The notes under the pieces are model-generated. The model ran no database searches. It was not told the origin of the DNA and worked only from the letters and a program-made list of their open reading frames with translations. This document shows, one piece after another, positions 15,460 to 63,264 of a stretch of DNA of 64,000 nt (its first letter is position 1; each line of letters starts with the position of its first letter). The translations under genes and the position numbers were made by a program. This stretch comes from Stegostoma tigrinum (lineage: Eukaryota): the NCBI RefSeq assembly GCF_030684315.1, contig NC_081397.1, forward strand, positions 11,928,421 to 11,992,420, given 5' to 3'.

Positions 15460-17290
15460 AGCTGAAGGAGGATGATGGCTCGGTGACGTCGTCTCGTCCC
15501 GACATTTTGAGGATCAGCAGATCCTTCTACGCCAGACTGTAGGACGCGAAGCCCATGGACAGAACGGCCTCTGAGTGGTTCCTGTCATCTATCACGAAGA
15601 TCTTGGACAACGGCACTGTGGAGTGGCTGGACCGGCCAATATCCCTGGATGAGCTGACCAGAGCCCTCAAGTCCTTGGAGAGGAATAAGACTCTCGGAAG
15701 CAACAGCTTACCGGTCGAGCTGTATTCCGCTCTGTGGGACCTGGTCGGCCAGGACATGCTGGAGGTGTACGATAGTGCGCTTCGGGCAGGGGCAATGTGC
15801 AAGTCCATGACGAAGGGCATCATCATCCTCATTTACAAGAGGAAGGGGGAGAGGGAAGAAATTAAGAATTGGCGTCCCATTTCATTATTGAACGTGGACT
15901 ACAAAATCCTGGCCAAGGTAATAGCCAACCGGGTCAGGTCTGTCCTGGAGTCGGCAATTCACCCTGACCAAACCTGTGCTGTGCCAGGCAGGAAGATCGC
16001 TGAGAGCCTCGCGCTGATCAGGGATATGATCGCCTACATGCAGGACAGGAGGGTGGACACCTGCCTTGTCAGCCTGGACCAGGAGAAGGCCTTCGAAAGG
16101 GTCTCTCATGCTGACATGAGGGACATGCTCTCCAAATTGAGGTTCGGGGAGGGCAGCCGCAATTGGATCCGGCTGCTCTGCACCAACATCTTTAGCCTAG
16201 TCTTGATCAATGGGTGGGAATCAAACAGTTTTCCCATCAGATCTGGAGTCAGGCAGGGCTGCCCGCTCTCTCCTGCCTTTTTCGTGCGCAATATTGGGCC
16301 CTTGGCCAGAACATCAGGGAGGACATGAGCCTTAAGGGCGTGACTATCCCAGGCAGCGGAGGCCTTCAGGTCAAAACCTCCCTGTACATGGACGATGTCG
16401 CCGTCTTCTGCACCGATCTTCGGTCGGTGAGTACGCTGTTGGACATCTGCGGCCAGTTTGAACTGGCCTCGGGTGCCAAAGTCAATAGGGGTAAGAGCGT
16501 GGCCATGTTCTTCAGGAACTGGGACGACCGCTCCTTCGCCCCTTCACCGTCAGGACAGACTACTTGAAGGTGCTGGGTGTTTGGTTCGGTGGAGGTGGGG
16601 TGTGCACTAAGACTTGGGAGGAGCATATCACCAAACTGAAGCAGAAGCTGGACAGGTGGACCCTCCGGTCCCCCTCCATCACGGGTAAGAACCTGTTTGT
16701 CAGGTGAGAGGGGCTTTCGGTACTGTTCTATGTGGCGCAGGCCTGGCCTATTCTCTGGACCTGCGCCGCTGCAGTCACCCGGGCCATCTTCCACTTCATT
16801 TGGGGGTCGAGGCTGGATGGACCAGGTCCGCAGGGACACCATGTACAAAGACCTGGAAAACAGGGGAAAGGGTGTACCGAACGCTAACCTCGCCCTGATG
16901 GCTACCTTTGTGTGTGGCTGCATCAAGCTGTGCGTAGATCCTCAGTCCGCAAACACCAAGTGTCACTGCATACCAAGGTTCTACCTGTCCACTGTGTTGC
17001 GATGGATGGGCCTGGCCTCGTTGCCGCAGAACGCTCTGCGTAGTTGGACCGTCCCGTACCACCTGTCCTTCGTGGAGAAATTTTTGAAACACCTTTGACC
17101 ACAAGGCCGCCAGGCAGTGGTCAGCACGTAATATCCTCGAGACCCTTCGGGAAAAGGAGAATGTGGATCCCGTCGTGTCGTTGCCCACGCAGACTGCCAA
17201 AGTCGATCAGCAGAATGCGTCATCACCAGAATTTTAAAAACAAGCACAAGGGCATTGCTTGGCTGGCGGTGAGAGGGGCTCTGCCGTGCA
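15460..17290 (+). mobile_element. Tx1-clade (L1 group) non-LTR retrotransposon RT fragment, pseudogenised
   Basis: NWRPISLLNVDYKILAK, DQEKAF, GVRQGCPLSP, LYMDD; stops and frameshifts; GC/CpG-rich compared with the flanks. Confidence 0.88.
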
Positions 17291-24199: not shown

Positions 24200-27100
24200 T
24201 TAATACATACTGATCAGGTACTCAACTACAACTGCAATCACGCCAATCCCCACTAATGGAGCTGCATCAAAACACTGTTCAAGTGAGCCATAACACACTG
24301 CAGCATCCAGAGCTGCGTAAAGCCGAGGAAGCACATTGACACCAACGACATAGGTAGGAAGAGAGATGGGGATTTAAGGCAGAAATTCAGGGAGCTCGGA
24401 TGGAAGCTGAGAGCTAGGACGAACAGAGTTGTTGTGTCTGGTTTGTTGCCCGTGCCACGTGCTAGTGAGGCGAGGAATAGGGAGAGAGAGGAGTTGAACA
24501 CGTGGCTACAGGGATGGTGCAGGAGGGTGGGTTTTGGATTCTTGGATAATTGGGGCTCTTTCTGGGGTAGGTGGGACCTCTACAAGGAAGATGGTCTTCA
24601 CCTGAACCAGAGGGGTACCAATCTCCTGGGGGCAAAATTTGCTCAGCCTATTCGGGTGGGTTTAAACTAATTCAGCAGGGGGATGGGAACCAAAATTGTA
24701 GGTTGAGGATAGAAAAGGTTGAGAGTAGGGAGGTCAGAAATAAAGTTTCAGGGATGCAAGATGGCGCCGGCAAGCAAGAAGTTGCTTTGAAGTGTGTCTA
24801 CTTCAACGCCAGGAGCGTCTGGAATAAGGTGGGTGAACTTGCAGCATAGGTTAGTACCTGGGACTTCAATGTTGTGGCCATTTTAGAGACATGGATAGGG
24901 CAGGGACAGGAATGGCTGTTGCAGGTTCTGGGATTTAGATGTTTCAGTAAGAACAGAGAAGATGGTAAAATGAGGGAGGTGTGGCATTGTTGGTCAAGGA
25001 TTACAGTTGCAGAAAGCATGTTTGGGGACTCATCAACTGAGGTAGTATGGGCTGAGGTTAGAAACAGGAAAGGAGAGGTCACCCTGTTGGGAGTTTCCTA
25101 TAGGCCTCCGAATAGTTCCAGAGATGTAGAGGAAAGGATAGCAAAGATGATTCTCGATAGGAGTGAGAGAGACTGGGTCGTTGTCATGGGGGACTTCAAC
25201 TTTCCAAATATTGACTGGGAACACTATAGTTCAAGTACTATAGATGGGTCAGTTTTTGTCCAGTGTGTGCAGGAGGGCTTCCTGACACAGTATGTAGATA
25301 GGCCAACAAGGGGCGAAGCCACATTAGATTTGGTGCTGGGCAAGAGCCCGACCAGGTGTTGGATTTGGAAGTAGGTGAGCACTTCAGTGATCGCGATCAC
25401 AATTCTGTTATGTTTACTTTAGTGATGGAAAAGGATATGTGTATACCACTGGGCAAGAGTTATAGCTGGGGGAAAGGCAATTACGATGAGATAAGGCAAG
25501 ATTCAGGGAGCATAGGATGGGGAAGGAAACTGCAGGGGATGGGCACATTAGAAATGTGGCGTTTATTCAAGGAAAACCTCCTGTGTGTCCTACATAAGTA
25601 TGTACCTGTCAGGCAGGGAGGAAGCTGTACGGCGCGGGAGCCGTGGTTTACGAAGGAGGTGGAATCTCTGGTAAAGAGGAAGAAGAAGACTTATGTTAGG
25701 ATAAGATGTGAAGGCTCAGTTAGAGTGCTTGAGGGCTACGGGGTAGCCAGGAAAGACCTAAAGAGAGAGCTCAGAAGAGCCAGGAGGAGACATGAGAAGT
25801 TGTTGGCGGATAGGATCAGGGTAAACCCTAAGGCTTTCTATAGGTATTTAAGGAATAAAAGAATGACAAAAGTAAGATGAGGGCCAATCAAGGATAGTAG
25901 CGGTAGATTGTGTGGGGAGTCAGAGGAGATAGGGGAAGCACTCAATGCATATTTTTCAACAGTATTCACTCCTGAAAACAGCAATGTTGTCGAGGAGAAT
26001 ACTGAGATACAGGCTATTAGACTGGGTGGGATTGAGGTTCACAAGGAAGAGGTATTAGAAATCCTACAGAGGGTGACGATAGATAAGTCCTCTGGGCCGG
26101 ATGGCATTTATCTGAGGATCCTCTGGGAAGCCAGGGAGGAGATTGCCGAGCCTTTAACGTTGATCTTTCACTCGTCATTGTCTGCAGGAATAGTGCCAGA
26201 TGACTGGAGGATAGCAAATGTGGTTCCCCTGTTCAAGAAGGGGAGTAGAGACAACCCTGATAATTATAGATCAGTGAGCATTACCTCAGGTATTGGCAAT
26301 GTGTTAAAAAGATTATAAGGGATAGGATTTATAATCATCTAGAAAAGAATAAATTGATTAGGGATAGTCAGCACGGTTTTGTGAAGGGAAAGGCGTGCCT
26401 CACAAATCTTATTGAGTTCTTTGAGAAGGTGACCAAACAGGTAGATGAGAGTAAACCTGTTGATGTGTTGGATTTCAGCAAGGCATTCGATAAGGTTCCC
26501 CACAGTAGGCTCTTGTACAAAATGCGGAGGAATGGAATTGTGGGAGATATAGCAGTTTGGATCGGAAATTGGCCTGCTGAAAGAAGACAGAGGGTGGTAG
26601 TTGATGGGAAATGTTCATCCTGGACAGCAGTTACTAGAGGTGTACCGCAAGGGTCAGTGTTGGGTCCACTGCTGTTTGTCATTTTTATAAATGACCTGGA
26701 TGAGGGCGTAGAAGGATGTGTTAGTAAATTTGCAGACGACACCAAGGTCGGCGGAGTTGAAGATAGTGACGAAGGATGCTGAAGGTTGCAGAGAGACATA
26801 GATAAGCTGCAGAGCTGGGCTGAGAGGTGGCAAATGGAGTTTAATGCAGACAAGTGTGAGGTGATGCACTTTGGTAGGAGTAACCAGAAGGCAAAGTACT
26901 GGGGTAAGATTCTTGGTAGTGGCGACGAGCAGAACGATCTCGGTGTCCACGTACACAGATCCTTGAAAGTTGCCACCCAGGTTGACAGGGCTGTTAAGAA
27001 AGCATACAGTGTTTTAGCTTTTATTAATAGAGGGATCGAGTTCTGGAACGAAGAGGTTATGCTGCAGCTGCACAAAACTCTGGTACAGCCGCACTTGGAG

Positions 27101-28270
27101 TACTGCGTACAGTTCTGGTCACCGCATTATCAGAAGGATGTGGAAGCTTTGGAAAGGGTACAGAGCAGATTTACTGGGATGTTGCCTGGTATGGAGGGAA
27201 GGTCTTACGAGGAAAGGCTGAGAGACCTGAGGCTGTTTTCATTGGAGAGAAGAAGGTTGAGAGGTGACTTAATTGAAACATATAAAATAATCAGAGGGTT
27301 AGATAGAGTGGATAGGGACAGCCGTTTTCCTAGGATGGTGACAGCGAGCATGAGGGGGCATAGTTTTAAATTGAGGGGTGAAAGATACAGGACAGATGTC
27401 AGAGGTAGTTTCTTTACTCAGAGAGTGGTAAGGGAATGGAACGCTTTGCCTGCAATGGTAGTAGATTCGCCAACTTTAGGTACATTTAAGTCATCATTGG
27501 ATAAGCATATGGACGTGCATGGAATATTGTAGGTTAGATGGGCTTCAGATCGGTATGACAGGTTGGCACAACATCGAGGGCTGATGGGCCTGTACTGTGC
27601 AGTAATGTTCTATGTAAGAACGCTGATACAGTGTCTACAGAAATGACGGGGTTACCTGAAAAGCGTAGTCCTTCAACACCTGCACAACAGACGACAAATG
27701 GATAACACAACACTTCCAGAGACACTGGTCTCCCCACCATACATGAAAAACATATCAGAAATGACCACCATATTACCCCGATCCAACAACCACAACTGAC
27801 AGAACCAACGTTATTTGCGAGATATCGTGGACAGATGCCAAAAACATTACAAAGGCCAAACTGGTAGGAAGCTAGACATCACAATTCATAAACACCATCT
27901 AGCTACCAAGAGACATGGCCAACTATCACTCATCTCAATACACATGGACGAAGTGGGACACCGATTTGACTGGGACAACGTAGTCATCTGAGGACAAGTC
28001 AACCAAAGACATGCATGAGAATTCCTGGAGGCCTGATATTCAAACTGGAATGCCATTAACAAATGCATAGAGCAGGATCCCATATACCAACCACTGAGAA
28101 ACAAATCCGGAAGTGATGTCAGCCACCCCAGCAAACTGCGGCACATAAACAGCCAGCAGGACACAACAGCAATGCATCACCAGAGGTGCACTGAAGGTAT
28201 TATGTCGTATGGTGACAAAATGTCTGTAAACAAGCAACAACAAGCTTGTCAAGCAATTCAACAACAGCAT
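24200..28270 (+). mobile_element. Second-family Penelope-like element split by a CR1 insertion (24200-24330 and 27616-28270)
   Basis: HTDQVLNY...CIKTLFK before the CR1; HYKGQTGRKL...HRFDWDNV...EFLEA after it; degenerate hammerhead at ~28191-28225. Confidence 0.7.
24331..27615 (+). mobile_element. Near-full-length CR1 LINE (ORF1 esterase end, ORF2 APE endonuclease and RT), disrupted
   Basis: ORF1 SGNH-like TNDIG...DGLHLN; ORF2 [36 protein letters not shown]; 3' tail TTCTATGT; several stops and frameshifts. Confidence 0.95.
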
Positions 28271-29050
28271 GGTTATTAATCTGACCCCAACGGTTCCTGC
28301 AATGCAAGTGTGACAGCAGTTATCAATGGGTAGCTGCCAGTTTCTGCAATTTCAATGTCACTGTTATCAATCTCTGAGTTTCTGCTTGGTGACCATGTGT
28401 GCAGTTATCAATAACAGCCTGTCGGCTTCTACTCTGTGAATATGAGAGTAGTTACCAAACTGTACCTGTCAGCTAATGCTTTGTAAAACTGGGAAGGCTG
28501 ACTCCAGTATCTGCAGCTCTTGCTATCTCTAAGGTTATCGTCAATCAGTTCCTATCAATTTCTTACGTATGGATATGTGCATGTCGAGCACCTGTACCTG
28601 TCAGTACCTCATAATTTGCCAGTAAAGTTATCAATGTGTACCTGTGGGAATATACGTTGTGAATATTTGAGTATAGTCATCAAACTGTAACAGTCAGTTT
28701 TTTTTTAATCTGTGGATATGTGATTGCAGTTACAAATCTGTACCTGTCACTTTGTGGTCTATGAAATTGGGAGTTGTCATCAATATGTAGCTGCCAGTTT
28801 CTGCTGTGTGGATATGTGAAAGTAGCTACCGTTCAGTTGCTGTCAGTTTGCTATGTGAATGTGAGTGTTGTTTACGAACGTGTGCATACCAGTTGCTATG
28901 ATGTGAATGTGTGAATATCTTTATTAATCTTTAGCTGTCCGTTTCTGCAATGTCAATGTGAGTCTCGTCATCATTTTTTTTTCATAAGCATTTGCAATAC
29001 AAATGAGTGAGGTTAGGTATCAATCCATACCGGTCATTTTCTACTTGTAA
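28270..29050. repeat. 49-bp tandem repeat array
   Basis: Same monomer (e.g. CTGTACCTGTCAG, AGTTATCAAT). Confidence 0.8.
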
Positions 29051-29391
29051 AACTGGCTTAATTGTCAGCAGCCAGGAATATTATCGGTGGAGGTGTGACT
29101 CATTATGTGATAGTTGCTATGAGAGTAATTTTACGTGGATTTCATTCAGATACTGAGTGTATAATTTCAGTCTATCCATCTTCAAAATGGTGTAAAAGTC
29201 AATGGGTGATGAATTCTGAAATTTGTTGGAACTGTGCATTTGGAATGGAGAGACAAGAAAAATAAAGTTTCATTTCCTCAACGTTGTTTTACTGTTTGTT
29301 TGAACATAACTGTTGGAAATTAAGCTCACTGTGTGTCTGACTCAATCTGCTCTGTGACTGTGGAAAGGATGTTCTGACAGTGGGAACATAC

Positions 29392-29499
29392 CTGCTGTTT
29401 GTCAGAAGGATCTGGTCACACTTGCCATTGTACTGAAGAAATCTTACTTTGTCTTGGTCCTTCAAGTGTTTTTCTGCAGGAAAACAGAAGAGATAGTTC
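29392..29499 (-). other. 108-nt exon-like block, copy B (acceptor mutated)
   Basis: Donor CAG|GTATGT intact; acceptor AG changed to AT; frame open (NYLFCFPAEKHLKDQDK...LLTNS). Confidence 0.45.
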
Positions 29500-31089: not shown

Positions 31090-31710
31090 TGGCAGTCACT
31101 GACAGGTATCGATTGACAACTAAAATCACACATCCACATTGTGAAAACTGGCAGGGACTGATTGAAAAATACAACTGCATCTTCAGACAGCAATCAGTAT
31201 CTGTTTCTGTTATTTAGATGTGAGTTTTCTTATTAATCTGTTGATAATGATGTGTGAACATGCAACGTGAACATTTGGGTGCAAATTTCAATCCGTACCT
31301 GTCCACGTCTGCTCTGGGAACCTGAGAATGTAGTTATTCATCTGCAACTATCAGTTTCTGTGATGTGAATATATAAATGTAGTTATGAATTTATAACTCA
31401 GTTTCCTCTACGCGAATACGAGAATACAGTTATCTATTTCTACCGATCATTCTTGGCTATGTGCATATACGGACATTGTGATCAATCTGTCCCTGTCATT
31501 ACCTGCTGTGTGAATGTTGAAGTGCAATTGAAAACCTTTTCCACTCAGTTTCTGTGATGTGAATATGGAAATATAATTATTATTTCCCCCTGTCAGATTC
31601 CGCTCTGTGAATACAAGTGCCTCGTTATGCCACATGAGGCTTGGGAGTGTTACTGCAAGTTTCTTCCGATCGGTTTCTGCTTTGTGAATTTGAGGGTAGT
31701 AATATTGTCA
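31090..31710. repeat. 49-bp repeat array (first ~100 bp inverted)
   Basis: Reverse monomers CTGACAGGTA...ATTGACAACTA, then forward monomers. Confidence 0.7.
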
Positions 31711-34189
31711 AAGAGTCATACAGCTGCGAAACAGACCTTTGGTCCAACAGTCCCTGATGACCACAGGCATCAATTTCATTCCTTTCCTTTCAGCATCTGT
31801 TTGTTGTATGAGAGAGAGTTTTCTGATGAGCTGCCAATCTGAATTAAAGATAGGTATTGGTCTAAGTCACACTGTCCTTTAAATGTCTGTTTGTGTTTCT
31901 AGCTCGGCATGTATGATCTGATACCCTTGGTGAGGTGTATTATAAAATCATCATAGCACTAACTTATAACACATTAATCATAAAGAGAGTGCGAGAATTC
32001 TCTGAAATAGTCAGTCTCCCACTGAGATTGCAAGTGTGGTTATTGTTAGTTTCATCAGCATCGGGCTGACGTTCACCATGGGATCAATTCAGTCTCTGGC
32101 ATTGTGTGTCAATGTGTTCCTCATGCTTTGTCATCATATTTCACACGGACACCGAATGGGTAATGTTGTGGGTAATGTTCAAATGGGTAATGTTGCATTG
32201 AACATGTTACTTGTAGGAACTGCTGACATCCTTCTGTTGTTCAAATCTCTGCTGCTCAACATGAATGAGATTTTACCCAATGCCCTATGAATCAGATCAT
32301 GTAAATGAAACTGTTTTAATACCTTTGTCAGTCTCTGACTCTGTAGATGCAGTTTGGTTAATGTCCACAAATATTGAGTCTCTGTACAGGTTATGATAGT
32401 AAGTTTGGTTCTGGATTGGGCAGTCACTCATCTGACTGTGTATTTCAAATTTATTCCTCCTGTAACAAGATCATTATGTGAGCGTTTCTTCAATCCATTG
32501 CCAATAATCTCCAGTTATCTGTTTGCATCTGTATCTGTTCACGACCCTATTTGCTTTCTTCTTTGGTCCATTTAATAACACCTTTATGCAGTACTTGTGT
32601 ACGAGATGAGAGCTGCTTTTTAATTTGTACCTCTTTGGAGGCAAATTACATTGTAATGTTTATTTCATTTTAGACTTGGCCTACTATAGTTCAGTTCCAA
32701 CAAAGGAAATTGATACATTAGTTACATGTCCAAATCTAAGACATGGTGCGATATTTGGAGGCATATTTAATCTGGCTTTCAATTTACTTCTTGAGCTGTT
32801 TCAGTAGAATTCATCATTGATCATGCAATAGCTTCAGTATTTTCTAATGTAGTGAACATGACTAATTTACTTTATGCCAAGCTGATACCTCATACTTAAT
32901 CCTAAAGGAGAGCATTCACATACCGGGATTGAAGTACTTCACTCTTACCCTGTCCTATGAATGCTGAATGAAAGAGGAGCTCTCCCACCCAGGTGATATT
33001 TAAGAGAAATGGCATTTTCTTTTGTTTTCGCCTGGGTATCTACTAACCTGGCAGCATCTCCGTGCTTTGTAAGTTATTCTGTACCCACCGTGCATTGGCA
33101 CAGGAGCTGCTGTTATGAAACAAGACAGACAGATACACTCAATTGATCCTATTTCCATCTTCCTGTATTGCGTTACTGAGCAGATTAAGTATTTCTTGGA
33201 AAGTGGGCAGCCAATTACCACCATGGCAGAGGACAGAGTTTTCAGTTCATCTCTCCTTTCGCATATGGGAAACAGCCTATGTTCTTCAGTTGTTTGTGCC
33301 TACAACATTTATAAGCAAGTGAAAATGCAAGACATTGCAACTGAAATGCGTCTGTGCTTTTCCTCAAGAGTTGAGGACAGAAAATAAATGGATCTTTGTA
33401 AAGGATACATTGCAGAGACTAATCGCTGTGGTGATATCAAAGGATATTTTCAGGATGATATTAATATCATTCAACATTGCATAGTGGCACAAGTCTTGGA
33501 ATGCTGCTAAACTAAAGATGTTAATTTCGTATGTTATTGCCAAAGATGAAGTGCAATGAACAAATGAACTGCATTGCGGCTGACTGACCACAATGTTGCT
33601 TGTGCAGGAAAGAAAATTAGCTTTCTCACTTCGATTTTGTTTTATGGCGCAGACATTAACATGCTCGGTGTTGAACTTTTGTTTTCTGTCATGTAGTGGG
33701 TAAAACTGGGGCCGTCAAACTGAATTTACTGAAGAATAAACACTGTTGAACCCTCTTTGCAAAATATAAATGAGGACGGTTATGTAGTTATATTGCTTGT
33801 TTGAAAAAAATGGCATGAAGCGTCCTTGTGTTTGATGTAAAAATTCAGATGGAATGTCAAGAGGAACACAGGGCTATTTGAACAAAATTTAAGCTAATTT
33901 GAAAACAAAAGGTCTATGATTATAAAGTCCTCTTGCTTAAGATAGAATAAAAGATATTCTAATCATGCTAGGTGAAGCAATTGACAACTGATAAAGGTGA
34001 GGATGATACTTCATCTGCCAACATGACACATTTATGGAATTTGAATACTGGCTGAATTGATGTAGAATTGTCGGCTGGTTGTTTCTAAACAGTGCAGGTT
34101 CAATGAGAGAAAGGTCTGTTTGCTGTGCTGCAGACATCTATGAATATATGGGTGTGAGTGATAAGCATTGATCCGTACTTGTTGGTAGC

Positions 34190-34680
34190 TGTCACGTGAA
34201 GATATAAGCGTAACCATCCAACTGTCCCTCTCAGTTTCTGCTGTGAAATATGAGAGTTTAGTTATCAATCTATATCCATCAATTCCTCTCTCATGAATGC
34301 AAAAGTGTTACAAATATGTCCTAGTCAAAATCTTCTGTGAATATGCAAATGTTGTTATCAATCTACATATGCTTATGCTTTTGCTTTCCTGTCATGTGTG
34401 GATGTATTTATCAGCCTGTACCTGTCAGTTTTTGCAGTCTGAATGTGTGTGTAATTATCTTACTGTCCCTGTCACTTTCTGATGTGTGAATGAGTGTACT
34501 GTTATCAATATGTGCCTGTCAGTTTCTTCTCTATGGCTGTGCAAGTGTATTTACCCATTTGGCCCTGTCAAATCCTGTCCTGTAAATCTGACAGATGAGT
34601 TATTAGGCTATGCCTGAAGCTATCTGGTTTGTGAATGTGTGAATGCATTTATCATTCTCTCCCTGTATAATTTCTAGGGT
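34190..34680. repeat. 49-bp tandem repeat array
   Basis: Same monomer. Confidence 0.75.
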
Positions 34681-35129
34681 CGGGTTTATGTCTTATTCCG
34701 GCTTGGTCTGTCTCTGGTCTGGACACATTTAGAGTTTAATGTTCATTTCTTGTTGCAAGCTCACTGTATGAGACATTATTAATTGTATAGTCAACAATCT
34801 AGGTTATCTGCCTGAATGTAGGTTTTTTTTGTATCATTTCAGGTCAATATTTGATTTCCTTCTGGTCTATTTAAATAGCAAAGTTTATATACAGTAGAAG
34901 TGTTTCAGATGGTTTTCACTATTCAGTTTGTAGTTTTATGCAAACAAATGCAATGTCAATGTCAATTTCAATCTGAAACCTGTCCTGATGTGCAATTTCT
35001 CCAGTTTGTAGAAAAGGAAATGACACATTAATTACCTCTAAGTCGATGAGATGGTAACACGTAGAGAGGTGAAATTAATCTCTTGCTCAATATATTTCTT
35101 GGACTACTTCTTGGGAATTCAGTGTGTCA

Positions 35130-35950: not shown

Positions 35951-36790
35951 CCAATTTTTTTTCCCCCCCATATAATGAATGAGTGATATTCACATTATGA
36001 ACACGGGAGTGCATGTGCACATGAGGATTGAAGTATTTAGCTCACATTCTGTTCTATTTGTCTCTTATCATGAAAGGCTACCTCTCTGACCTGAAATCCG
36101 TGAGTGGAAGTCATCTTCAATATTACACATTCTGAGGTTTGCAATATACATGATCTTCATGGCTGTTAGATGGTGTAACACATGTGATGGGGATAGTGTA
36201 TATATTTACAACTCAGTGGAGTGCGTGTGTGCCAGAAAGTGTGCACACACACTCTGCTGGCATTCTACGTTAGGCTTTGGGACAGGATGTGCATTTTGAA
36301 GGCACATTATTTAATTGTTCTGGCTGTGCCTGGGACATCTATTTGACAAAAGATTAATGCTGTCCTGCTCGGTTACTGATAATAATGTCAATGTTTTCCT
36401 CCATATCTGTCCTCATTATCTGCTAGATGTATGGTTGGTGTAACTATGTAGCAGCATGAACTATTTCTTCACCTTGACAGTAACTTTGAAAACATAGTTA
36501 CTAAATGCAGATTTACTGCAGTTCTTTTGTGTCTATTTCAGATGAAAATTCAGTCTATTCATTTTCAAAAATGTTGTAAATGCCAATAGGCTACAAATGA
36601 TGAATTTTTTTGAAATGGGGTGGTGTGTGTTGAGAAAACAGAGGGAGAGAAAGAACTATTTGTATTTTGTTGGTTGTGTTTGACTGTTGTCTTGAAAGCA
36701 TGTCACCAGAAATTGAGTTTAATGTATCTCTGACTCAATTTGCTCTGTGCCTGTGGAAAGGATGTTCTCTGCTCGGACATGGTAACATAC

Positions 36791-36898
36791 CTGTTGTTTG
36801 TTAGAAGCAGCTGGTCACCCTTAGCTTTGTATTGGCCAAGTATTACATTGTCTTGTTCCTGCAAGTATTTTCCTGGGGGAAGACAGAAGAGTTTACTC
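36791..36898 (-). other. 108-nt putative exon 2, copy A (intact splice sites)
   Basis: Acceptor GTTGATTTACAG|G and donor CAG|GTATGT; the only open frame is the one set by a spliced AT|G. Confidence 0.55.
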
Positions 36899-37639
36899 CT
36901 GTAAATCAACATCAACTAAGTTTTACAATGTCAAAAAGATTAATGTAATATTCAGTTAGTAATTATTAGGATGATTCTTTTCTTTAACTTCTTCTGATGA
37001 AGACCAGTGCTCCAAAAGCCTATCATTTTAAAATAACCTGTCGGATGATGACAGCGTCATGAGACTTCTGCCTTTACTTTAAAGTCATCAATTCAAACAC
37101 AGCTCTGATTCCATTTTAACCTTGAGCTGCTCCTTGTCTAAGGATAATTTCTGTTTTAAATATATATGCTTCGATACCAATTGAGTAAAATCCAGAAGTG
37201 GAACGATAATTGGACAGCTCTACGTAAGGTGCTACCCAAAGCCACTGCGATGTCTGCGCCGTTACCAAATCCCAAAGCACTAACTGTAGAATACATTGAC
37301 TCTGATCAATGTCCGTTACAGGGTTCTTATACTTCCATAGTCTTATCTGTGTTTCGACTTAGACTGCACAATGTTAACAAACAGCATGAAACAGAAGCCA
37401 AACAATGAATTTCCAGTAGTGTTTAGAAGACTAAAAGCTACAAGACTGACCCCCAGCAGCAGCTTCTTGCCGCTGTGTCTCCCTCAGCAGGCCCACACAC
37501 AGCCCGAGAAAGGCCTCTCTCTTCAAGTTCCGGGACCAGTTCCTGCTCCGCTCGGCCTCTTACCTACAGCCCCCGGTTCTCCCTGAACTGAGCCCGAATC
37601 AATGCCGGTCTCGGAGCCCCCTCTGTGTCCCAGACTCAC

Positions 37640-37850
37640 ATCTCGATGCGCTGCTGGAAGGAGCCTGCTGTTCCCTCGCTTCCCTGGGCGCTGGTCTCTC
37701 CATTGCGGCCTGTTTCAAACAAACCTCTTCTACTCACTGAGTCAATGCTCCTCAATGGCAGCGCTGGGGGAAGGCCTTACGCATGCGCTCCTCTAAACAA
37801 ACAAATGCTCTTTTTCGAGTGGGTGGGGGAAATCGCGCATGCGCTACTTT
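37640..37850 (-). promoter_or_regulatory. CpG-rich promoter and putative first exon, copy 1
   Basis: NRF1-type ACGCATGCGC (37779-37788) and GCGCATGCGC (37835-37844), TGAGTCA (37738-37744), donor GAT|GTGAGT at 37640/37639. Confidence 0.55.
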
Positions 37851-38179
37851 TCCGAATAATTCCCAGAAACAAATATCAATTGATCATTTCCCCGATTCAC
37901 TTTTCTCCCAGTTTCAGCAAAGCAACTGAGGGCTGTGGGGGAAAGAGCAGAGAACGTTTGTATGTAATGACTTTTCTTTCCCACGATTCAATTCCAATTC
38001 GCAAAAACAAGAGCGTGAAACAGAAGCTGAACGATGAACTTCGATCGTTTCCCGGAACATGTCAGTAACTGCCTCCCTGCGGCTCTCTCACAATCTGATG
38101 GGCAAGTGGAGTAGCTGCCGGCCATTCGACCCTTTAGATGTGCTCCCTAATTCAAAACATCACGTCTAATCTTATGACA

Positions 38180-39960
38180 ACACAGTGTCGAGCTGGATGA
38201 ATACAGCAGGCAAAGCAGCATCTGAGGAGCACAAAAGCTGACGTTTCGGGCCTAGACCCTTCATTAGAAAAGGGGGATGGGCAGAGGATTCTGAAATAAA
38301 TGGGAAGAGAGGGGAGGTGGACTGATGATGGACAGAGGAGAAGATAGGTGGAGAGGAGAGTATGGATGGGGAGTTAGGGAGGGGATCGGTCAGCCCGGGG
38401 AGGACAGATAGGTCAAGGGGGCAAGATGAGGTTAGCAGAGTGGAAATGGAGGTGCGGCTTGAGGTGGGAGGAGGGGATAGGTGAGAGGAAGAACAGGTTA
38501 GGCAGGCTGGGACGAGCTGGGCTGGTTTTGGGACGCAGTGTGTGGAGGAGAGATTTTAAAGCTGGTGAAATCCACATTGATCCCATTGGGCTGCAGGGTT
38601 CCCTAGCGGAATACGAGTTGTTTTTCCTGCAAACTAAGGGTACTGCAGGACGCCCAGGATGGAAATGTCGTCTGAGGAATGGGCCCAAGCTACGCCTGTC
38701 TCTTTGTAGGTAATGTGGAACAGTCCCTCTTCCGCACCTACACTGGCCCCAAACCCCACCTCTTCCTCAGTTACATTGATGAATGTATTGGTGCTGCCTC
38801 ATGCTCCAAAGAGGAGCTCGAACAGTTCATCCATTTCATCAAAACCTTCCACCCCAACCTCAAGTTCACCTGGACCATCTCTAACACATCCCTCACCCTC
38901 CTGGACCTTTCTGTCGCGATCTCAGGCGACCACCTATAAACCAATACAACAAAATGTGAGGCTGGATGAACACAGCAGGCCAAGCAGCATCTCAGGAGCA
39001 CAAAAGCTGACGTTTTGGGCCTAGACCCTTCATCAGAGAGCTCTCTGCTGAAGGGTCTAGGCCCGAAACGTCAGTTTTTGTGCTCCTGAGATGCTGCTTG
39101 GCCTGCTGTGTTCATCCAGCCTCACATTTTGTTGTCTTGGATTCTCCAGCATCTGCAGTTCCCATTATCTCTGACCTATAAACCAATGCCCATTTCAAGC
39201 CCACCGACTCCCACAGCTACCATGAATACACCTCCTCCCAACCACCTTCCTGCAAAAATTCCATCCCCTATTCCCAATTCCGTCACCGCTGCCGCATCTG
39301 CTCCCAGGATGAGGCATTCCACTCCTGCACAACCCAGATGTCCTCGTTCTTCAAGGGCCGCAACATTCCACCCCACCCTCCCCCGACAGTGGTCAAGAAC
39401 ACCCTCGGCCGTGTCTCCCGCATTTCCTGTACCTCATCCCTCACACCCCACCCTCTCAATAACTGCCCCAATAGAATCCCCCTCGTTCTCACATACCACC
39501 CCACCAACCTCCGGAAACAACACATCATCCTCCGACACTTCTGCCATCTACAATCCGACCCCACCACCAAAGGTATTTTTCCATCCCCACCCTTGCCTGC
39601 CTTCCAGAGAGACCACTCTCTCCGCGACTGCCTCATCCACTCAACACTCCCCTACAACCCCACCACACCCGGCACTTTCCCCTGCAACTGCAAGAAGTGC
39701 TACACCTGCCCCCACACCACCTCCTTCACCCCCATCCCAGGCCCCAAGATGACTTTCCATATCAAGCAGATAGTCACCTGCACATCTGCCAATGTGTTAT
39801 ACTGCATCCGCTGTACATGGTGTGGCCTTCTGTGCATTGGGGAAACCAAGTGGAGGCTTACAGACTGCTTTGCAGAACACCTACACTCGCAGTAAATAAC
39901 CGCACCTCCCAGTTGCGAACCAGTTCAACTCCCCCTCCCATCAATGTGTCCTCAATTTGA
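38180..39960 (+). mobile_element. Penelope-like element (RT C-terminus and GIY-YIG) with inverted 5' piece (38180-38680)
   Basis: MGPSYACLFVG, FLSYIDECIG (YIDD), FHPNLKFT, KPTDSHSY, LCIGETKWRL. Confidence 0.88.
38941..39140. repeat. 200-bp spacerless palindrome of PLE pseudo-LTR inserted with a 14-bp TSD
   Basis: Centre 39040/39041, about 4 mismatches between arms; ACCTATAAACCAAT at 38932-38945 and 39174-39187. Confidence 0.92.
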
Positions 39961-50578: not shown

Positions 50579-51226
<648 letters not shown>

Positions 51227-51719: not shown

Positions 51720-52640
51720 AGTGCTTTTTGCTTTCTGTTGATTTGACAAATTTTACTCTCTCTCCCACTTCGGCTCTCCAATCAGTGTCACTATCAGTTT
51801 CTGCTGCAAGATATGAGTGTAGTTATCCATGTAGCCTGTCAATTTCTGCAATGTCAATATGTCTGTTTAGTTATCCATTTATATTTCTCATTTTCTGCTC
51901 CGTGAGAGTGTGTGTGTGAGAGTGTGTATGTGTGTAGTTACCAATACATAGGTGTCAGATACTGCACTGTTGATATGCATATAGTTATCAAAGTGTACCT
52001 GTCAGTTCAAGCTGTATGACATTGGGAGGGTTATTACCAAGCTGTTCCTGTCCATTTCTGCTTCATGGATACGTGAAGTTCATGATCAGTACGTACCTAT
52101 GAGAATCTGCTTGTGAAAATTGGAGTGTAGTTACATTGAACATTACAGCACAGTACAGGCCCTTCAGCCCTCAATAGTATGCCAACCTGTCATACCGATC
52201 TGAAGTCCATCTAACCTACACTATTCCATGTATGTCCACATGCTAATCCAATGACAACTTAAATGTACCTAAAGTTGGTGAATCTACTGCCATTATCACA
52301 CCGCACCTAAAAAAAACTGTTAAGTCTGTGGATATTTAAATGCATTTATAAAATTGGACCTGTGAAGTTATGCTGTGAAACTGGAGTGTTAGCAACAGAG
52401 AAGAACGGATTGTTGATATGCTGTGGATATATAAGCGTAGTTATCATTTGGGTACATGTAGTTTGATATGTGAGCATAAATATTAATTTGTACATATCAT
52501 TTTTCAAATGTGAATTTGAGAATGGTATAGCAAACTTTTTTTCCATATATGAGAGAGTGTCAACCTGTTTTTTGCCTGTTTCTACAGGGTGAATGATTGA
52601 GCAGAGGAATCAACACATGCTTGTCAGTTTCTATTTGACA
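51720..52640. repeat. 49-bp repeat array interrupted by a CR1 3' tail (52134-52290, minus)
   Basis: Same monomer; the CR1 tail matches 27460-27615. Confidence 0.8.
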
Positions 52641-52824
52641 ACACGGCTGAACTTTGGCAGCCAGTAATATTCTCTGTGACGATGCAATTTGTTATGTGGT
52701 AGCTGTTATCAGAGTCATTTAATGCAGATTATATTCAGTTTGAGTGTGTATTTTGGACAAGTATTCAGTCTGTCCATCTTCAAAAACGGTGTAAATGTCA
52801 ATGGGCTGTGAATGCAGAAATGTG

Positions 52825-53872: not shown

Positions 53873-53980
53873 CTTCCGTTTGTTAGAAGCAGCTGGTCAC
53901 ACTTGGCTTTGTGCCGAGGGAATATTACTTTCTCTTAGTCCCTCACGTATTTGCCTGGAGGAAGACAGAAGAAAACCCTC
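53873..53980 (-). other. 108-nt exon-like block, copy C
   Basis: Acceptor GACTTGCAG|G, donor AAG|GTATGT; one CAA>TAA stop in the homologous frame. Confidence 0.5.
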
Positions 53981-54329: not shown

Positions 54330-57300
54330 TGTGAGATTCTGCCCTGTGTTTATTTGAGAAGTTATCAAATTGGACTTGACTGTGATTATTTTTTTTCCCC
54401 CCTTTGTGAATATGAGAATGCCGTTGTAAGTCTTTACCTGATTGTTGGTGATGTGGGAATGTTCGTGTCAGTGTCTGCAAGGTGAGTATACTTATCCATC
54501 TGTGCCAGTCGTTTTCTGCTATCTGAATGTCAGAGAGCAGGCTTCAGACTGTGCTTCTCAGTTTCTGCTATGTCAACACGTGAGCTTGGCTTTTCATCTT
54601 TACCTGTCAGTTCCGAGCTTTGAATGTGTGGGTGCAGTTGTTAGCGTAACCTTGAATGTTTCTGCTTGTAAAAATGCACCATATTCATTCAATCCTAACA
54701 GTCATTTTCAGACATGTGAATATGAAAATGTAGTTATCCGTCTGTGATTGTCAGTTTCTGTTCTGTAATTATGAGACTGTGCTTTTCAGTGCGTACCAAC
54801 CAATTTCTGTTGTATGAATGAGATTGTCATTATCAATCTGAACCTTGTCAGTGTCTCCCCAGTGAATATTCTTGTGTAATTATCAGGATTATACCTCTAG
54901 GTTTCTGCTGTGAATTATTAATTAATTAGTTCTCTTGCTTTCTTGTAACATTTTGCAGGAAGGATTATCCCATCCCTGTCACATATTGCAAAGCAAATGT
55001 GTGGCTATGGTTATCAAATCTGTACACTCAGTTTTTGCCATGTGAATGAGAGGGTGCAGTTATCAATCTCAGTTTCTGCAATGATAATGGAAGTGCAATT
55101 ATCAGTCTCTGTCAGTTTCTGCTGTATCCATAGATGGGTTTAGTTATTATCAGTACATGTCAGTTTCCGTCACATAAGTGTGTGAGTGTTATCAACCTGC
55201 CCCTGACAGTTACTGTAATGCAGGTGGGTGACTGTAGTTATTAAGCTGTAGCTCTCTGTTACTGCCATGTGAATGAGTGTAGCTGTGCACCTACACATCA
55301 GTTGCTGGTGGTCAATGCATGAGTGTAGTTGTCACTTCTATACCTGTTTTGTATTTGCTTGTCAATCTGAGTTTAGTAATCGATCAGTTATTGTCAGATT
55401 CTGCTGTGAAAATCTGATAGTTATCAAACTGTACCTGTCAGTTTAAACAAATATGAAACTGGGAGTTTTATTATTAATCTGTTTCTGTCAGTTTTTGCTG
55501 TGTGGATATGATAGATTTGTGATCAAAAGTTCAGGAATAGTGCCAGATGACTGGAGGATAGCAAATGTGGTTTCCCTGTTCAAGAAGGGGAGTAGAGACA
55601 ACCCTGGTAATTATAGACCAGTGAGCCTTACCACAGTTGTTGGTAAAGTGTTGGAAAAGGTTATAAGGGATCGGATTTATATTCTAGAAAAGAATAAAAT
55701 TGATTAGGGATAGTCAGCATGGTTTTGTTAACGGAAGGTCGTGCCTCACAAACCTTAGAGTTCTTTGAGAAGGTGACCAAACAGGTAGATGAGAGTAAAC
55801 CGGTTGATGTGGTGTTTATCGATTTCAGCAAGGCATTTGATAAGATTCCCCACAAGACGCTATTGTGCAAAATGCGGAGGAATGGAATTGTGGGAGATAT
55901 AGCAGTTTAGATCGGAAATTGGCCTGCTGAAAGAAGACAGAGGGTGGTAGTTGATGGGAAATGTTCATCCTGGAGAGCAGTTACTAATGGTGTACCGCAA
56001 GGGTCGCTGTTGGGTCCACTGCTGTTTGTCATTTTTATAAATGACCTGGATGAGGGCGTAGAAGGATGGGTTAGTACATTTGCAGACGACACCAAAGGTC
56101 GGTGGAGCTGTGGATAGTGACGAAGGATGCTGTAGGTTGCAGAGAGTCATCGATAAGCTGCAGAGCTGGGCTGAGAGGTGGGAAATAGATTTTAATGCAG
56201 ACAAGTATGAGGTGATGCACTTTGGTAGGAGTAACCAGAAGGCAAAGTACAGGGCTAATGGTAAGATTCTTAGTAGTGTAGATGAGCAGAGAGATCTCGG
56301 CGTCCATGTACACAGATCCTTGAAAGTTGCCACCCAGGTTGACAGGGGTGTTAAGGTGGCATACAGTGTTTCAGCTTTTATTCATCGAGTTCTGGAACCA
56401 AGAGGTTATGGTGAAGCCATACAAAACTCTGGTGCGGCTGCACTTGGAGCATTGTGTACAGTTCTGGTCACCGCATTATAAGAAGGATGTGGAAGCTTTG
56501 GAAATGGTGCAGAGGAGATTTACTAGGATGTTGCCTGATATGGAGGGAAGGTCTTGAGGAAAGGCTGAGGGACTTACATTACAGAGAAGGTGGTTGAGAG
56601 GTGACTTGAAACATATAAAATAATCAGAGGGTTAGATAGGGTGGATAGGGAGAACCGTTTTCCTCGGATGGTGACGGTGAGCACAAGGGGGCATAGCTTT
56701 AAATTGAGGGGTGAAAGATATAGGACAGATGTCTGAGGTAATTTCTTGACTCAGTAGTAAGGGAATGGAACACTTTGCCTGCAACGGTAGTAGATTCGCC
56801 AACTTTGGGTACATTTAAGGCGTCATTGGATAAGTATATGGATGTACATGGAATAGCGTAGGTTAGATGGGCTTGAGATCGGTATGACAGGTCGGCACAA
56901 CAACATCGAGGGCCAAAGGGCCTGTACTGTGCTGTAATGTTCTACGTTCTATGTTTTGTCATTAACTACCAGACGAATGTCCGAGTCCATTTACCGGTCA
57001 GTCCCTGTCAGTTTCAGCTGTGTGTCTGAGTGTGCAGTTATAAATCTGTAACTGGTAGTCTCTGTTACATGACTATTTCAGGACATTTATCAATCGTTCC
57101 CTATCAGCCAGTGAGTGTGCTGTGAATGTGCTTAGCAATTTGGATTTGCCAGTCCTGGTATTGAAATATAAATAATTTCTCCTTGTCAGTTTCTGCTCGG
57201 TGTGTCAATGAGTGGAGTTAGAAATCTGTACCTATAATGTTTATACCACATGAATAAGAGTACAGATGTCAATCTTTCTCTGTCTGTTTCTGCTCTGTGA

Positions 57301-60688: not shown

Positions 60689-60786
60689 CTGGTGTTAGTT
60701 AGAAGCAACTGCTCACACTTGGCTTTGTAACAAGGAAATATTGTTTCTTCGAGTACTTTCCTGGAGGAAGACAGAAGAGTTATCTC
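60689..60786 (-). other. Exon-like block, copy D (98 nt, degenerate)
   Basis: Acceptor GATTTACAG|G intact; donor CAG|GCATGT; net 10-nt deletion and early TAA. Confidence 0.4.
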
Positions 60787-61549
60787 CTGTAAATCAACAT
60801 CAGCCAAATTTGACAATATCAATCAGATTAACATATATTCAGTGAACAGTTTTTAGGGTGTTTCGTTTCTTGAACTTCACCTCCCAAAGCAACAGAACTC
60901 CAAAATAAACCTGTTGGACCACAGCAGAGAATTCTCTTGACACAGTCTTTTCTTTAAAGGGCATCAATTCAAACACAAGTCTGATTCCATTCTTACATCG
61001 AGCTGCTCCTTGTCTGAGGAATTGTTTTTCAAATATGTAATTCGATACCAACGGAGTGAGATTCAGAAACTGAGCAATAATTGCAAAGCTCCATCTGAGG
61101 TGCGACCTGAAGATGCTACACTGTTGACACAGCTCATGTTACCAGATCCCAACACACTGTTGAAAAGAACAGCAGCCGCTGTTTCAAATGTGTTTTTTCC
61201 CCCCCGAGACGTATAATCTGTTAACTCCAATCTACGTCCTTTATCGGAAGCCCCACAACTGGCAGCTAACAGCGTGAAACAGCAGCCAAACAATGAATTT
61301 CCATCAGTGTTTAGAAGACTAAAAGCTACAAGACTGATCCCCAGCAGCAGCTTCTTGCCGCTGTGTCTCCCTCCGCAGGCCCACACACAGCCCGAGAAAG
61401 GCCTCTCTCTCCCCGCCCCCAGGCCGCTCACTCCAAGTTCCGGGACCAGTTCCTGCTCCCCTCCGCCTCTGACCAACAGCCCCCGGTTCTCCCTGAACTG
61501 AGCGCGAATCAGTGCCGGTCTCGGAGCCCCTTCTGTGTCCCAGACTCAC

Positions 61550-61705
61550 ATCTCGATGCGCTGCTGGAAGGAGCCTGCTGTTCCCTCGCTTCCCTGGGCG
61601 CTGGTCTCTCCATTGCGGCCTGTTTCAAACAAACCTCTTCCATTCACTGAGTCAACACTCCTCAATGCCAGCGCTGGGGGAGGGTCTCACGCATGCGCTC
61701 CTTTC
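61550..61705 (-). promoter_or_regulatory. CpG-rich promoter and putative first exon, copy 2
   Basis: Paralog of 37640-37795; ACGCATGCGC at 61689-61698; donor GAT|GTGAGT at 61550/61549. Confidence 0.5.
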
Positions 61706-62625: not shown

Positions 62626-63264
62626 TCATTTCTTTGCTGCTTTCTTGGTCACTTTCGCTTTGGGCTTGGCCTTCGGTTTCCTCGATTTCGGGGCCGGCTT
62701 TGCGGCCTTGGGGCTCTTGGTCTTTATCACCTTCTTCACGGGAGTCTTTTTCTTCGGCGCTGCTTTCTTCGCCGGTTTCTTCGGCGTTGCTGCCTTCTTG
62801 CCGCCCGCTTTCTTGCCGGTTGCTTTCTTGGCTGGGGACTTCTTCGCTGCCACCTTCTTGGCCGTTGTTTTCTTCACGGCTGCTTTCTTGGCGGCTGCTG
62901 CTGGTCTCGCCTTCTTTCCCACTTTTGCCTTGACTGGATTCTTTGCGAGTTTGAAGGAGCCGGAGACGCCCTGGCCCTTCACCAGAACCAGGGAGCCTTT
63001 CGCCAGGCACCTCTTGGTCGCCATCCTGATCTGTGCATTTTGCTTCTCCACATTGACCCCGCTTCTCTGCAGCGCCTTCTTTATAGTGACCAGAGACGTC
63101 CCCTTCCGATCGCTGTTCTCCCCGACAATCTTCACAATCCGCTCGCCCAACCCGGGACCGGCTGGTTTCTTCCTGGGAGCCGCCGCCTTCTTCTTCTTTG
63201 GAGACTTGGGTTTGGTGCTGCCGGAGGCTGGAGGAGCCGTTTCGGCGGCTGCACTGTCGCTCAT
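62626..63264 (-). CDS. H1: Histone H1 paralog, 212 aa
   Basis: Intact ORF, roughly 10 substitutions and a 5-aa KKSPA insertion relative to 42684..43307. Confidence 0.96.
   Translation of the reverse strand: MSDSAAAETAPPASGSTKPKSPKKKKAAAPRKKPAGPGLGERIVKIVGENSDRKGTSLVTIKKALQRSGVNVEKQNAQIRMATKRCLAKGSLVLVKGQGVSGSFKLAKNPVKAKVGKKARPAAAAKKAAVKKTTAKKVAAKKSPAKKATGKKAGGKKAATPKKPAKKAAPKKKTPVKKVIKTKSPKAAKPAPKSRKPKAKPKAKVTKKAAKK

What the first reader, a model, noticed from the sequence alone, without database searches (positions are those of the whole stretch)
36791..37850. Candidate unannotated spliced minus-strand gene whose start codon would be created by splicing
Seen: a CpG-rich block with two NRF1-type GCGCATGCGC sites is followed leftwards by a consensus donor (GAGAT|GTGAGT, 37640), a 741-nt intron and a 108-nt exon (acceptor TTTACAG|G at 36898, donor CAG|GTATGT at 36791). 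Joining gives AT|G and the only open frame of the exon: MSKLFCLPPGKYLQEQDNVILGQYKAKGDQLLLTNN. An upstream ATG (37703, MERPAPREAREQQAPSSSASR) would stop at the same junction (T|GA), an overlapping ATGA stop-start. Inference: the 5' end of a lineage-specific gene or lncRNA interleaved with the histone cluster. I do not recognise the peptide and found no convincing third exon.
Basis: partly seen in the sequence, partly recalled or inferred. Interest (0 to 1): 0.75.

Follow-up and report, generated by a model that had tools for sequence, protein, structure and literature searches.

The report
Multicopy spliced leader, shark histone cluster
This is one of at least 141 copies of a promoter-plus-short-exon module among a shark's histone genes; it likely makes a spliced non-coding RNA (gene models of sister copies run it into histone H2B), and the start codon made by splicing is probably a coincidence rather than the start of a real protein.

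Summary
The motifs and coordinates are real, but the block is not a lone gene. A 22-base piece of exon 1 occurs 141 times in the genome, and the module recurs between histone genes. The split-ATG route is open in 3 of 17 modules. In this copy it would open a 221-residue frame, but half of that is antisense LINE, it varies neutrally and it is broken in 5 of 5 older copies. This copy has lost its downstream H2B. The 400-base promoter core is homogenised across copies. No RNA reads were examined, so the exon 1 junction is untested.

The parts
37835..37844 (-). Distal NRF1-type site, full consensus
   Evidence: two such sites in 11 of 17 modules although the DNA around them is only 64% conserved per column
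37779..37788 (-). Proximal NRF1-type site (last base T); marks the 5' edge of the homogenised core
37390..37790 (-). Homogenised core of about 400 bases: proximal site, exon 1 and the first 250 bases of the intron
   Evidence: 90-96% identical to 16 other modules whose exon 2 blocks are 65-91% identical; no Rfam match; folding z -0.41
37640..37760 (-). Predicted exon 1 (5' end unknown), ending AT before the GTGAGT donor
   Evidence: AT and GTGAG kept in 17 of 17 modules; use of this donor is untested
37640..37703 (-). Upstream ATG frame, 21 codons plus one base, strong start context
   Evidence: present in 16 of 17 modules; no database protein found with it
37558..37566 (-). Competing donor TAG|GTAAGA after 37564; using it removes the split ATG
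36791..36898 (-).
   Evidence: AG kept in 15 of 20 paralog types; this acceptor type is implied once, at a second exon copy in bamboo shark model P0011
36791..36872 (-). Exon 2, conserved form (82 nt)
   Evidence: AG kept in 20 of 20 types; homologous acceptor and donor implied by database models
32323..32459 (-). Exon 3 (137 nt); donor and coding part from database models of sister copies, acceptor at 32459 inferred
   Evidence: broken or absent in 5 of 5 older copies
29392..29473 (-). Exon 4 (82 nt), an old internal duplicate of exon 2
26654..26990 (-). Exon 5 to the stop codon, antisense inside a LINE reverse-transcriptase remnant (25027-27511, + strand)
   Evidence: absent from 5 of 5 older copies
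60689..61702 (-). Second module of the window: core plus exon 2 with a 10-nt deletion and a GC donor
53873..53954 (-). Second exon 2-type copy of that module, with an in-frame stop; H2A follows on the same strand

Best explanation
This is one copy of a promoter-exon module repeated at least 141 times in the genome, which likely makes a spliced non-coding leader RNA, and its split ATG is probably incidental. Shown: the repeat anatomy (paired NRF1-type sites, exon 1, two or three copies of an 82-nt exon), its place beside histone genes, the lack of coding constraint, and the loss of the downstream H2B block in this copy. Inferred from database models of sister copies: the exons are spliced, and the transcript ends either in an H2B gene (acceptor 11 nt before its ATG) or, in this young subfamily, in an antisense LINE exon. 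Inferred: NRF1-type factors drive the promoter; exon 1 joins mainly the 36872 acceptor; the upstream ATG frame stops at or soon after the first junction, so the RNA would give little protein and may be degraded by nonsense-mediated decay; gene conversion between copies keeps the 400-base core alike.
For: 141 exact copies of an exon 1 22-mer, 0 for the reversed control, the 100 listed all on the window's contig. All 17 exon 1 copies in 1.014 Mb are followed by an exon 2 copy; of 11 that could be followed to an end, 7 reach H2B and 2 reach H2A on the same strand, 2 reach no histone (one of the 7 crosses an opposite-strand fragment; the modules are not independent). Codon positions equally conserved (0.845, 0.833, 0.829) and exon equal to downstream intron (0.836 both). 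Downstream frame in 14 young copies: 24 amino-acid-changing and 7 silent variants, pN/pS 0.97-1.26. Database models read exon 1 and exon 2 in different frames (P0013 against P0019; P0008 against P0009). The junctions of P0002, P0008 and P0009, one with a GC donor, are reproduced from a fetched older copy. Core tree needs 2 region changes (the minimum), exon 2 tree 6.
Against: No RNA reads were examined, so transcription and the exon 1 junction of this copy are not shown. Database models are predictions; that their introns rest on RNA alignments is my recollection of how such models are made, and reads could not be assigned among copies up to 99.9% identical over 32 kb. The donor GT is kept in only 16 of 20 types, not above background. 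The exon 3-5 frame is open in 13 of 14 young copies and the split ATG would be in frame with it. The core tree has weak support (43-76% bootstrap for the three regional groups). The dN/dS intervals are wide and do not exclude mild constraint.
Confidence: 0.68

Rival explanations
1. The module is a dedicated second promoter for histone genes: spliced leaders deliver H2B (and perhaps H2A) mRNA outside S phase or in the germ line, and this copy is an orphan that lost its H2B.
For: 9 of 9 modules that reach a histone gene reach it on the sense strand. Database models P0002, P0008, P0009, P0010 join the exons to H2B. Older copies of this very module have H2B 17-18 kb downstream. Paired NRF1-type sites persist in diverged DNA.
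Against: All 6 H2B genes aligned keep two CCAAT boxes and a stem-loop, 5 of 6 a TATA box, so they do not need the module; only 3 of 6 have the CAG acceptor, the others AAG. The leader carries a strong upstream ATG. The frame joined to H2B differs between models and depends on copy-specific indels.
Confidence: 0.14
2. One reading: a young protein-coding gene whose ATG is made by splicing 37640 to 36898, giving a 221-residue protein through exons 3-5.
For: The frame is open across all five exons in this copy; exons 3-5 are open in 13 of 14 young copies; longer isoforms of the three database genes (P0001 and P0005 are X2, P0004 is X4) exist that I could not see; the upstream acceptor type is implied once in P0011.
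Against: Neutral variation; 111 of 221 residues come from an antisense LINE absent in older copies; 13 of 16 older copies have a stop in exon 2; 2 of the 13 parsed young copies have a changed acceptor tract but all keep the weak 10-of-18 type; no protein with this start in three searches; a competing donor removes the split ATG.
Confidence: 0.07
3. Decayed remains of an older coding gene with a short first exon and tandem 36-residue exon repeats, carried along by histone-cluster duplication.
For: The majority exon has one open frame; exon 1 (phase 1), the 82-nt form (phase 1-2) and the 108-nt form (phase 2-2) would chain in that frame; bamboo shark model P0011 does exactly this from the same ATG position; the upstream ATG route is open in 5 of 17 modules.
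Against: No parent protein: profile hits that carry the exon are only unnamed carpet-shark predictions; no Pfam or Atlas match; no sign of constraint since the copies split. A single open frame that fits an upstream ATG arises often by chance.
Confidence: 0.06
4. This copy is silent passenger DNA; the signals persist only through recent duplication and gene conversion.
For: Exon no better conserved than intron; donor retention not above background; no database protein matches this copy exactly (its last exon differs by one residue from P0001).
Against: Models exist for three copies 98.8-99.8% identical in the last exon; CpG retained; downstream acceptor invariant among types.
Confidence: 0.05

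Closest known systems
RefSeq automated models in Stegostoma tigrinum: LOC132207171, LOC132206964, LOC132206966 (XP_059498353.1, XP_059498079.1, XP_059498089.1) and late histone H2B.L4-like isoforms (XP_059498003.1, XP_059498004.1, XP_059498468.1, XP_059498483.1)
   Same: Same exons and junction types; the first three match copies at 14.05, 10.08 and 10.33 Mb of the window's contig exactly in the last exon
   Different: They are unreviewed predictions of proteins; none seen includes exon 1 or starts at the split ATG; this copy itself has no exact model among those found
Spliced, polyadenylated mRNAs of mammalian replication-dependent histone genes (HIST1H2BC, H2BD, H2BK, H2AC, H4H; PMC5100578, passages read)
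   Same: Normally intronless histone genes that also give spliced RNAs, mostly H2B
   Different: There the intron is 3' of the stop codon and the gene's own promoter is used; here the predicted introns are 5', from a separate promoter 10-24 kb upstream, and the H2B stem-loop stays
NRF1-type CpG-island promoters (consensus GCGCATGCGC; PMC10810270, abstract and outline read)
   Same: One full and one 9-of-10 site, 55 bases apart, in CpG-rich DNA just before the predicted first exon
   Different: Present in over a hundred homogenised copies; binding and activity untested
Multi-exon long non-coding RNAs and 5' leaders with upstream ORFs (general knowledge, recalled)
   Same: Promoter and acceptor kept, no coding constraint, terminal exon recruited from an antisense transposon
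   Different: Amplified as part of the histone repeat unit, with internally duplicated exons

Membership tests
Protein-coding gene with a start codon split by an intron | ATG formed across an exon junction | tested here: met
   AT|G at 37640/36898 in the sequence; also at 36872
Protein-coding gene with a start codon split by an intron | The junction is used in RNA | not tested
   No reads examined; no database protein found that starts there
Protein-coding gene with a start codon split by an intron | Reading frame under purifying selection | tested here: not met
   dN/dS 0.89-1.21, 14 of 20 types broken; pN/pS 0.97-1.26 downstream
Stop-start (termination-reinitiation) pair | Overlapping ATGA kept together with both frames | tested here: not met
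   Downstream frame open from a junction ATG in 3 of 17 modules, one of which lacks the upstream ATG
Multi-exon lncRNA / non-coding leader | No conserved reading frame | tested here: met
Multi-exon lncRNA / non-coding leader | Spliced transcript over 200 nt | tested here: inconclusive
   Only indirect: database models of sister copies
Multi-exon lncRNA / non-coding leader | Promoter features at the 5' end | tested here: met
   CpG o/e 0.71-0.85 and NRF1-type sites above chance; sequence features only
Alternative upstream promoter of H2B | Same-strand H2B downstream with an acceptor in its 5' UTR | tested here: not met
   Not in this copy; met in older copies
Transposable element | Dispersed copies with independent flanks | tested here: not met
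   100 of 100 listed matches on one contig (41 not listed); 17 of 17 followed by exon 2. No repeat library was available to compare
Known structured RNA family | Rfam match or stable fold | tested here: not met

The most novel reading that the evidence does not exclude
Carpet sharks built a second, NRF1-driven control layer into their histone repeat: over a hundred promoter modules, kept alike by gene conversion, send spliced 5' leaders into H2B and H2A genes to make histone mRNA outside S phase, and orphaned copies such as this one spawn new open frames (here 221 residues, started by a splice-made ATG and ended in a LINE).
Probability: 0.15. Interest if true: 0.7.

Novelty: new variant of a known kind. 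Interest (0 to 1): 0.36.

Why it matters
Replication-dependent histone genes are normally intronless and use their own promoters; the spliced forms described in mammals use 3' introns. A distant, multicopy promoter with a spliced 5' leader would be a different route to histone mRNA and is directly testable with long reads. The sharply bounded homogenised core is also a clean natural marker of gene conversion at promoters. If the RNA is only read-through noise, the practical lesson is that the N-terminally extended H2B and 'uncharacterized' proteins annotated here are probably not real proteins.

Tried and rejected
Pfam on four window peptides and on P0001 and P0011: no family. ESM Atlas on the 35-residue exon frame: no usable hit, low recognition. 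Rfam: only two histone stem-loops in the window, nothing at E up to 1 in 36600-38000. Folding of the core: not better than shuffles. Search with the exon 1 ATG frame for proteins of 78-2000 residues: 8 candidates, none scored (weak evidence). tRNA scan of the window: none. A zinc-finger, NLR or TRIM gene downstream: no C2H2 array and no long non-repeat, non-histone frame in 264 kb; short exons of such genes would be missed. Three profile hits (P0018, P0022, P0024) are long repetitive proteins that lack the exon motif and were set aside as chance. About 600 kb sampled beyond the clusters held no module. Rows dropped before counting: 1 of 38 exon 2 hits that did not cover the exon, 16 near-duplicates at 95% identity and 1 partial copy, leaving 20 types; one collapsed duplicate has lost the downstream AG, so by copy it is 17 of 18 in the 264-kb stretch.

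Full report
Observation. CpG observed/expected reaches 0.71-0.85 over 37501-38250, and the NRF1-type 9-mer is far above chance (4 strand-matches at 3 sites, 0.04 expected). Only the distal site is the full ten-base consensus.

Setting. The window is G000:C56:11928421-11992420 and holds H1, H3 and H2A genes. Database proteins that match it are named Stegostoma tigrinum and lie on a contig of the same length as C56, so the organism is most likely the zebra shark. A 22-base piece of exon 1 occurs 141 times in the genome, the reversed control 0 times; the 100 listed places are all on C56, and further copies lie on C62. In 1.014 Mb of fetched DNA I found 17 exon 1 copies and 32 exon 2 hits, all inside histone clusters. 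Each module is a promoter core, exon 1 and usually two or three exon 2-type copies. Of 11 modules that could be followed to an end, 7 reach H2B and 2 reach H2A on the same strand; this one and its facing neighbour reach no histone. Older copies of this module (about 89% identical) have H2B 17-18 kb downstream; homology with the window stops near 17280, about 2 kb short of it, and neither young copy examined has H2B there.

Which acceptor. In 13 of 17 modules this acceptor is followed by GC, which puts the upstream ATG in frame with exon 2; the GA that makes the stop is found in 4 of 17 and in 29 of 29 parsed close copies (1 of 30 not parsed). So the stop at that acceptor is a subfamily substitution. 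Exon 1 also has a competing donor after 37564; with it the split ATG does not form.

Coding tests. The three codon positions are equally conserved and the exon is no more conserved than the intron after it. The split-ATG route is open through exon 2 in 3 of 17 modules; a fourth is open but reads ATA. In the second module of this window it meets a stop at codon 3.

Database models. Profile searches found only unnamed carpet-shark predictions and H2B isoforms. P0002, P0008, P0009 and P0010 join exon 2-type sequence to H2B. I reproduced their junctions from a fetched older copy: the exon 2 donor, the conserved acceptor of the next copy, a GC donor inside it, and an acceptor 11 nt before the H2B ATG. 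At the gene with P0010 (X1, 187 residues) and P0002 (X2, 164) no isoform seen starts at the split ATG, although the frame is open there. The models read the same exons in different frames, as expected when a longest-frame rule is applied to non-coding RNA. That such models rest on RNA alignments is recalled, not shown.

Joining 37640 to 36898 and then exons 3-5 gives an open frame of 221 residues in this copy, and exons 3-5 are open in 13 of 14 other young copies. But 111 residues come from the antisense strand of a LINE reverse-transcriptase remnant that is absent from 5 of 5 older copies, where exon 3 or 4 is also broken or missing; 13 of 16 older copies have a stop in exon 2; and variation among the young copies is neutral, 24 amino-acid-changing to 7 silent. 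I read it as a recent chance frame. Longer isoforms of those genes were not visible, so a model with the split ATG may exist.

The core. From the proximal NRF1-type site to about 250 bases into the intron, column conservation over 17 modules is 0.93-0.98, against 0.64 upstream and 0.70 downstream. This copy's core is 92.7% identical to its own older counterparts (exon 2 block about 90%) and 93-96% identical to unrelated module types nearby (exon 2 block 65-76%). The core tree groups by genomic region, with weak support, whereas the exon 2 tree groups by module type with strong support. That pattern fits gene conversion among neighbours better than strong selection. Recombination is reported to favour promoter-like features where PRDM9 is lost or partial, and some cartilaginous fish lack a PRDM9 domain (PMC5519329, passages read); the link to this locus is only my inference. 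One consequence is that the near-perfect conservation of exon 1, its ATG and its donor is not evidence that they are under selection. The distal NRF1-type site, kept in diverged DNA (two sites in 11 of 17 modules), is the better sign of a working promoter.

Comparison with the literature. Spliced mRNAs from mammalian replication-dependent histone genes have their intron after the stop codon (PMC5100578, passages read). The NRF1 consensus is from PMC10810270 (abstract and outline). A shark and ray genome preprint mentions histone clusters beside tRNA loci but, in the passages read, not this module (10.1101/2025.06.08.657570; its supplements were not seen). Searches listed no paper on the module, judged from titles and abstract starts only; the library lacks most subscription journals. 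Earlier AI notes on other copies reached a similar reading; they are not independent support.

Verdict. Real sequence features, ordinary split ATG, and a moderately interesting family: a multicopy, probably non-coding spliced leader in the carpet-shark histone repeat, of which this is a copy without its H2B. RNA evidence for the first junction remains the open point.

Noticed in passing
window 61500-65900 (extends into L041): Twin modules face outward on either side of the H1 gene at 62626-63264; the same arrangement recurs about 147 kb upstream and in both older regions sampled.
   Followed up: partly
window 37593-37640: Donor turnover between sharks: bamboo shark models imply no GT at the zebra shark donor and an exon 1 that is 47 nt longer; in zebra shark the same base gives both the donor and a stop right after the genomic ATG. 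Direction of change unknown.
   Followed up: partly
window 50970-51000: The H2A 5' UTR has a pyrimidine tract and AAG like the acceptor-type site of some H2B genes, and a module lies upstream on the same strand; a leader-to-H2A junction is possible.
   Followed up: no
L031-L050 and window (264 kb): Histone genes are unevenly represented: 4 H2B, 4 H2A, 4 H3, 4 full H1 but 2 H4 found; H2B and H2A lie in tandem, not divergently; H2B promoters have no canonical octamer.
   Followed up: partly
   Followed up: partly
window 28300-29100, 31300-31700, 34100-34700, 51800-52700, 54400-55500: The module's introns hold a decayed short repeat of about 45-50 bases, shared between modules.
   Followed up: no
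G000:C56:2197000 and 2249000 (in L079, L084-L085); C56:2270000-2309000; C56:7000000-7200000: Between the histone islands lie single-exon frames that look like G-protein-coupled receptors (by eye, recalled motif) and long GC-rich tandem repeats with long open frames.
   Followed up: no
G000:C56:14035001-14085000 (L056-L060): A copy 2.1 Mb away is 99.92% identical to window 14434-47000 over 32.5 kb, with a 7-kb insertion relative to the window after that: very recent segmental duplication.
   Followed up: partly
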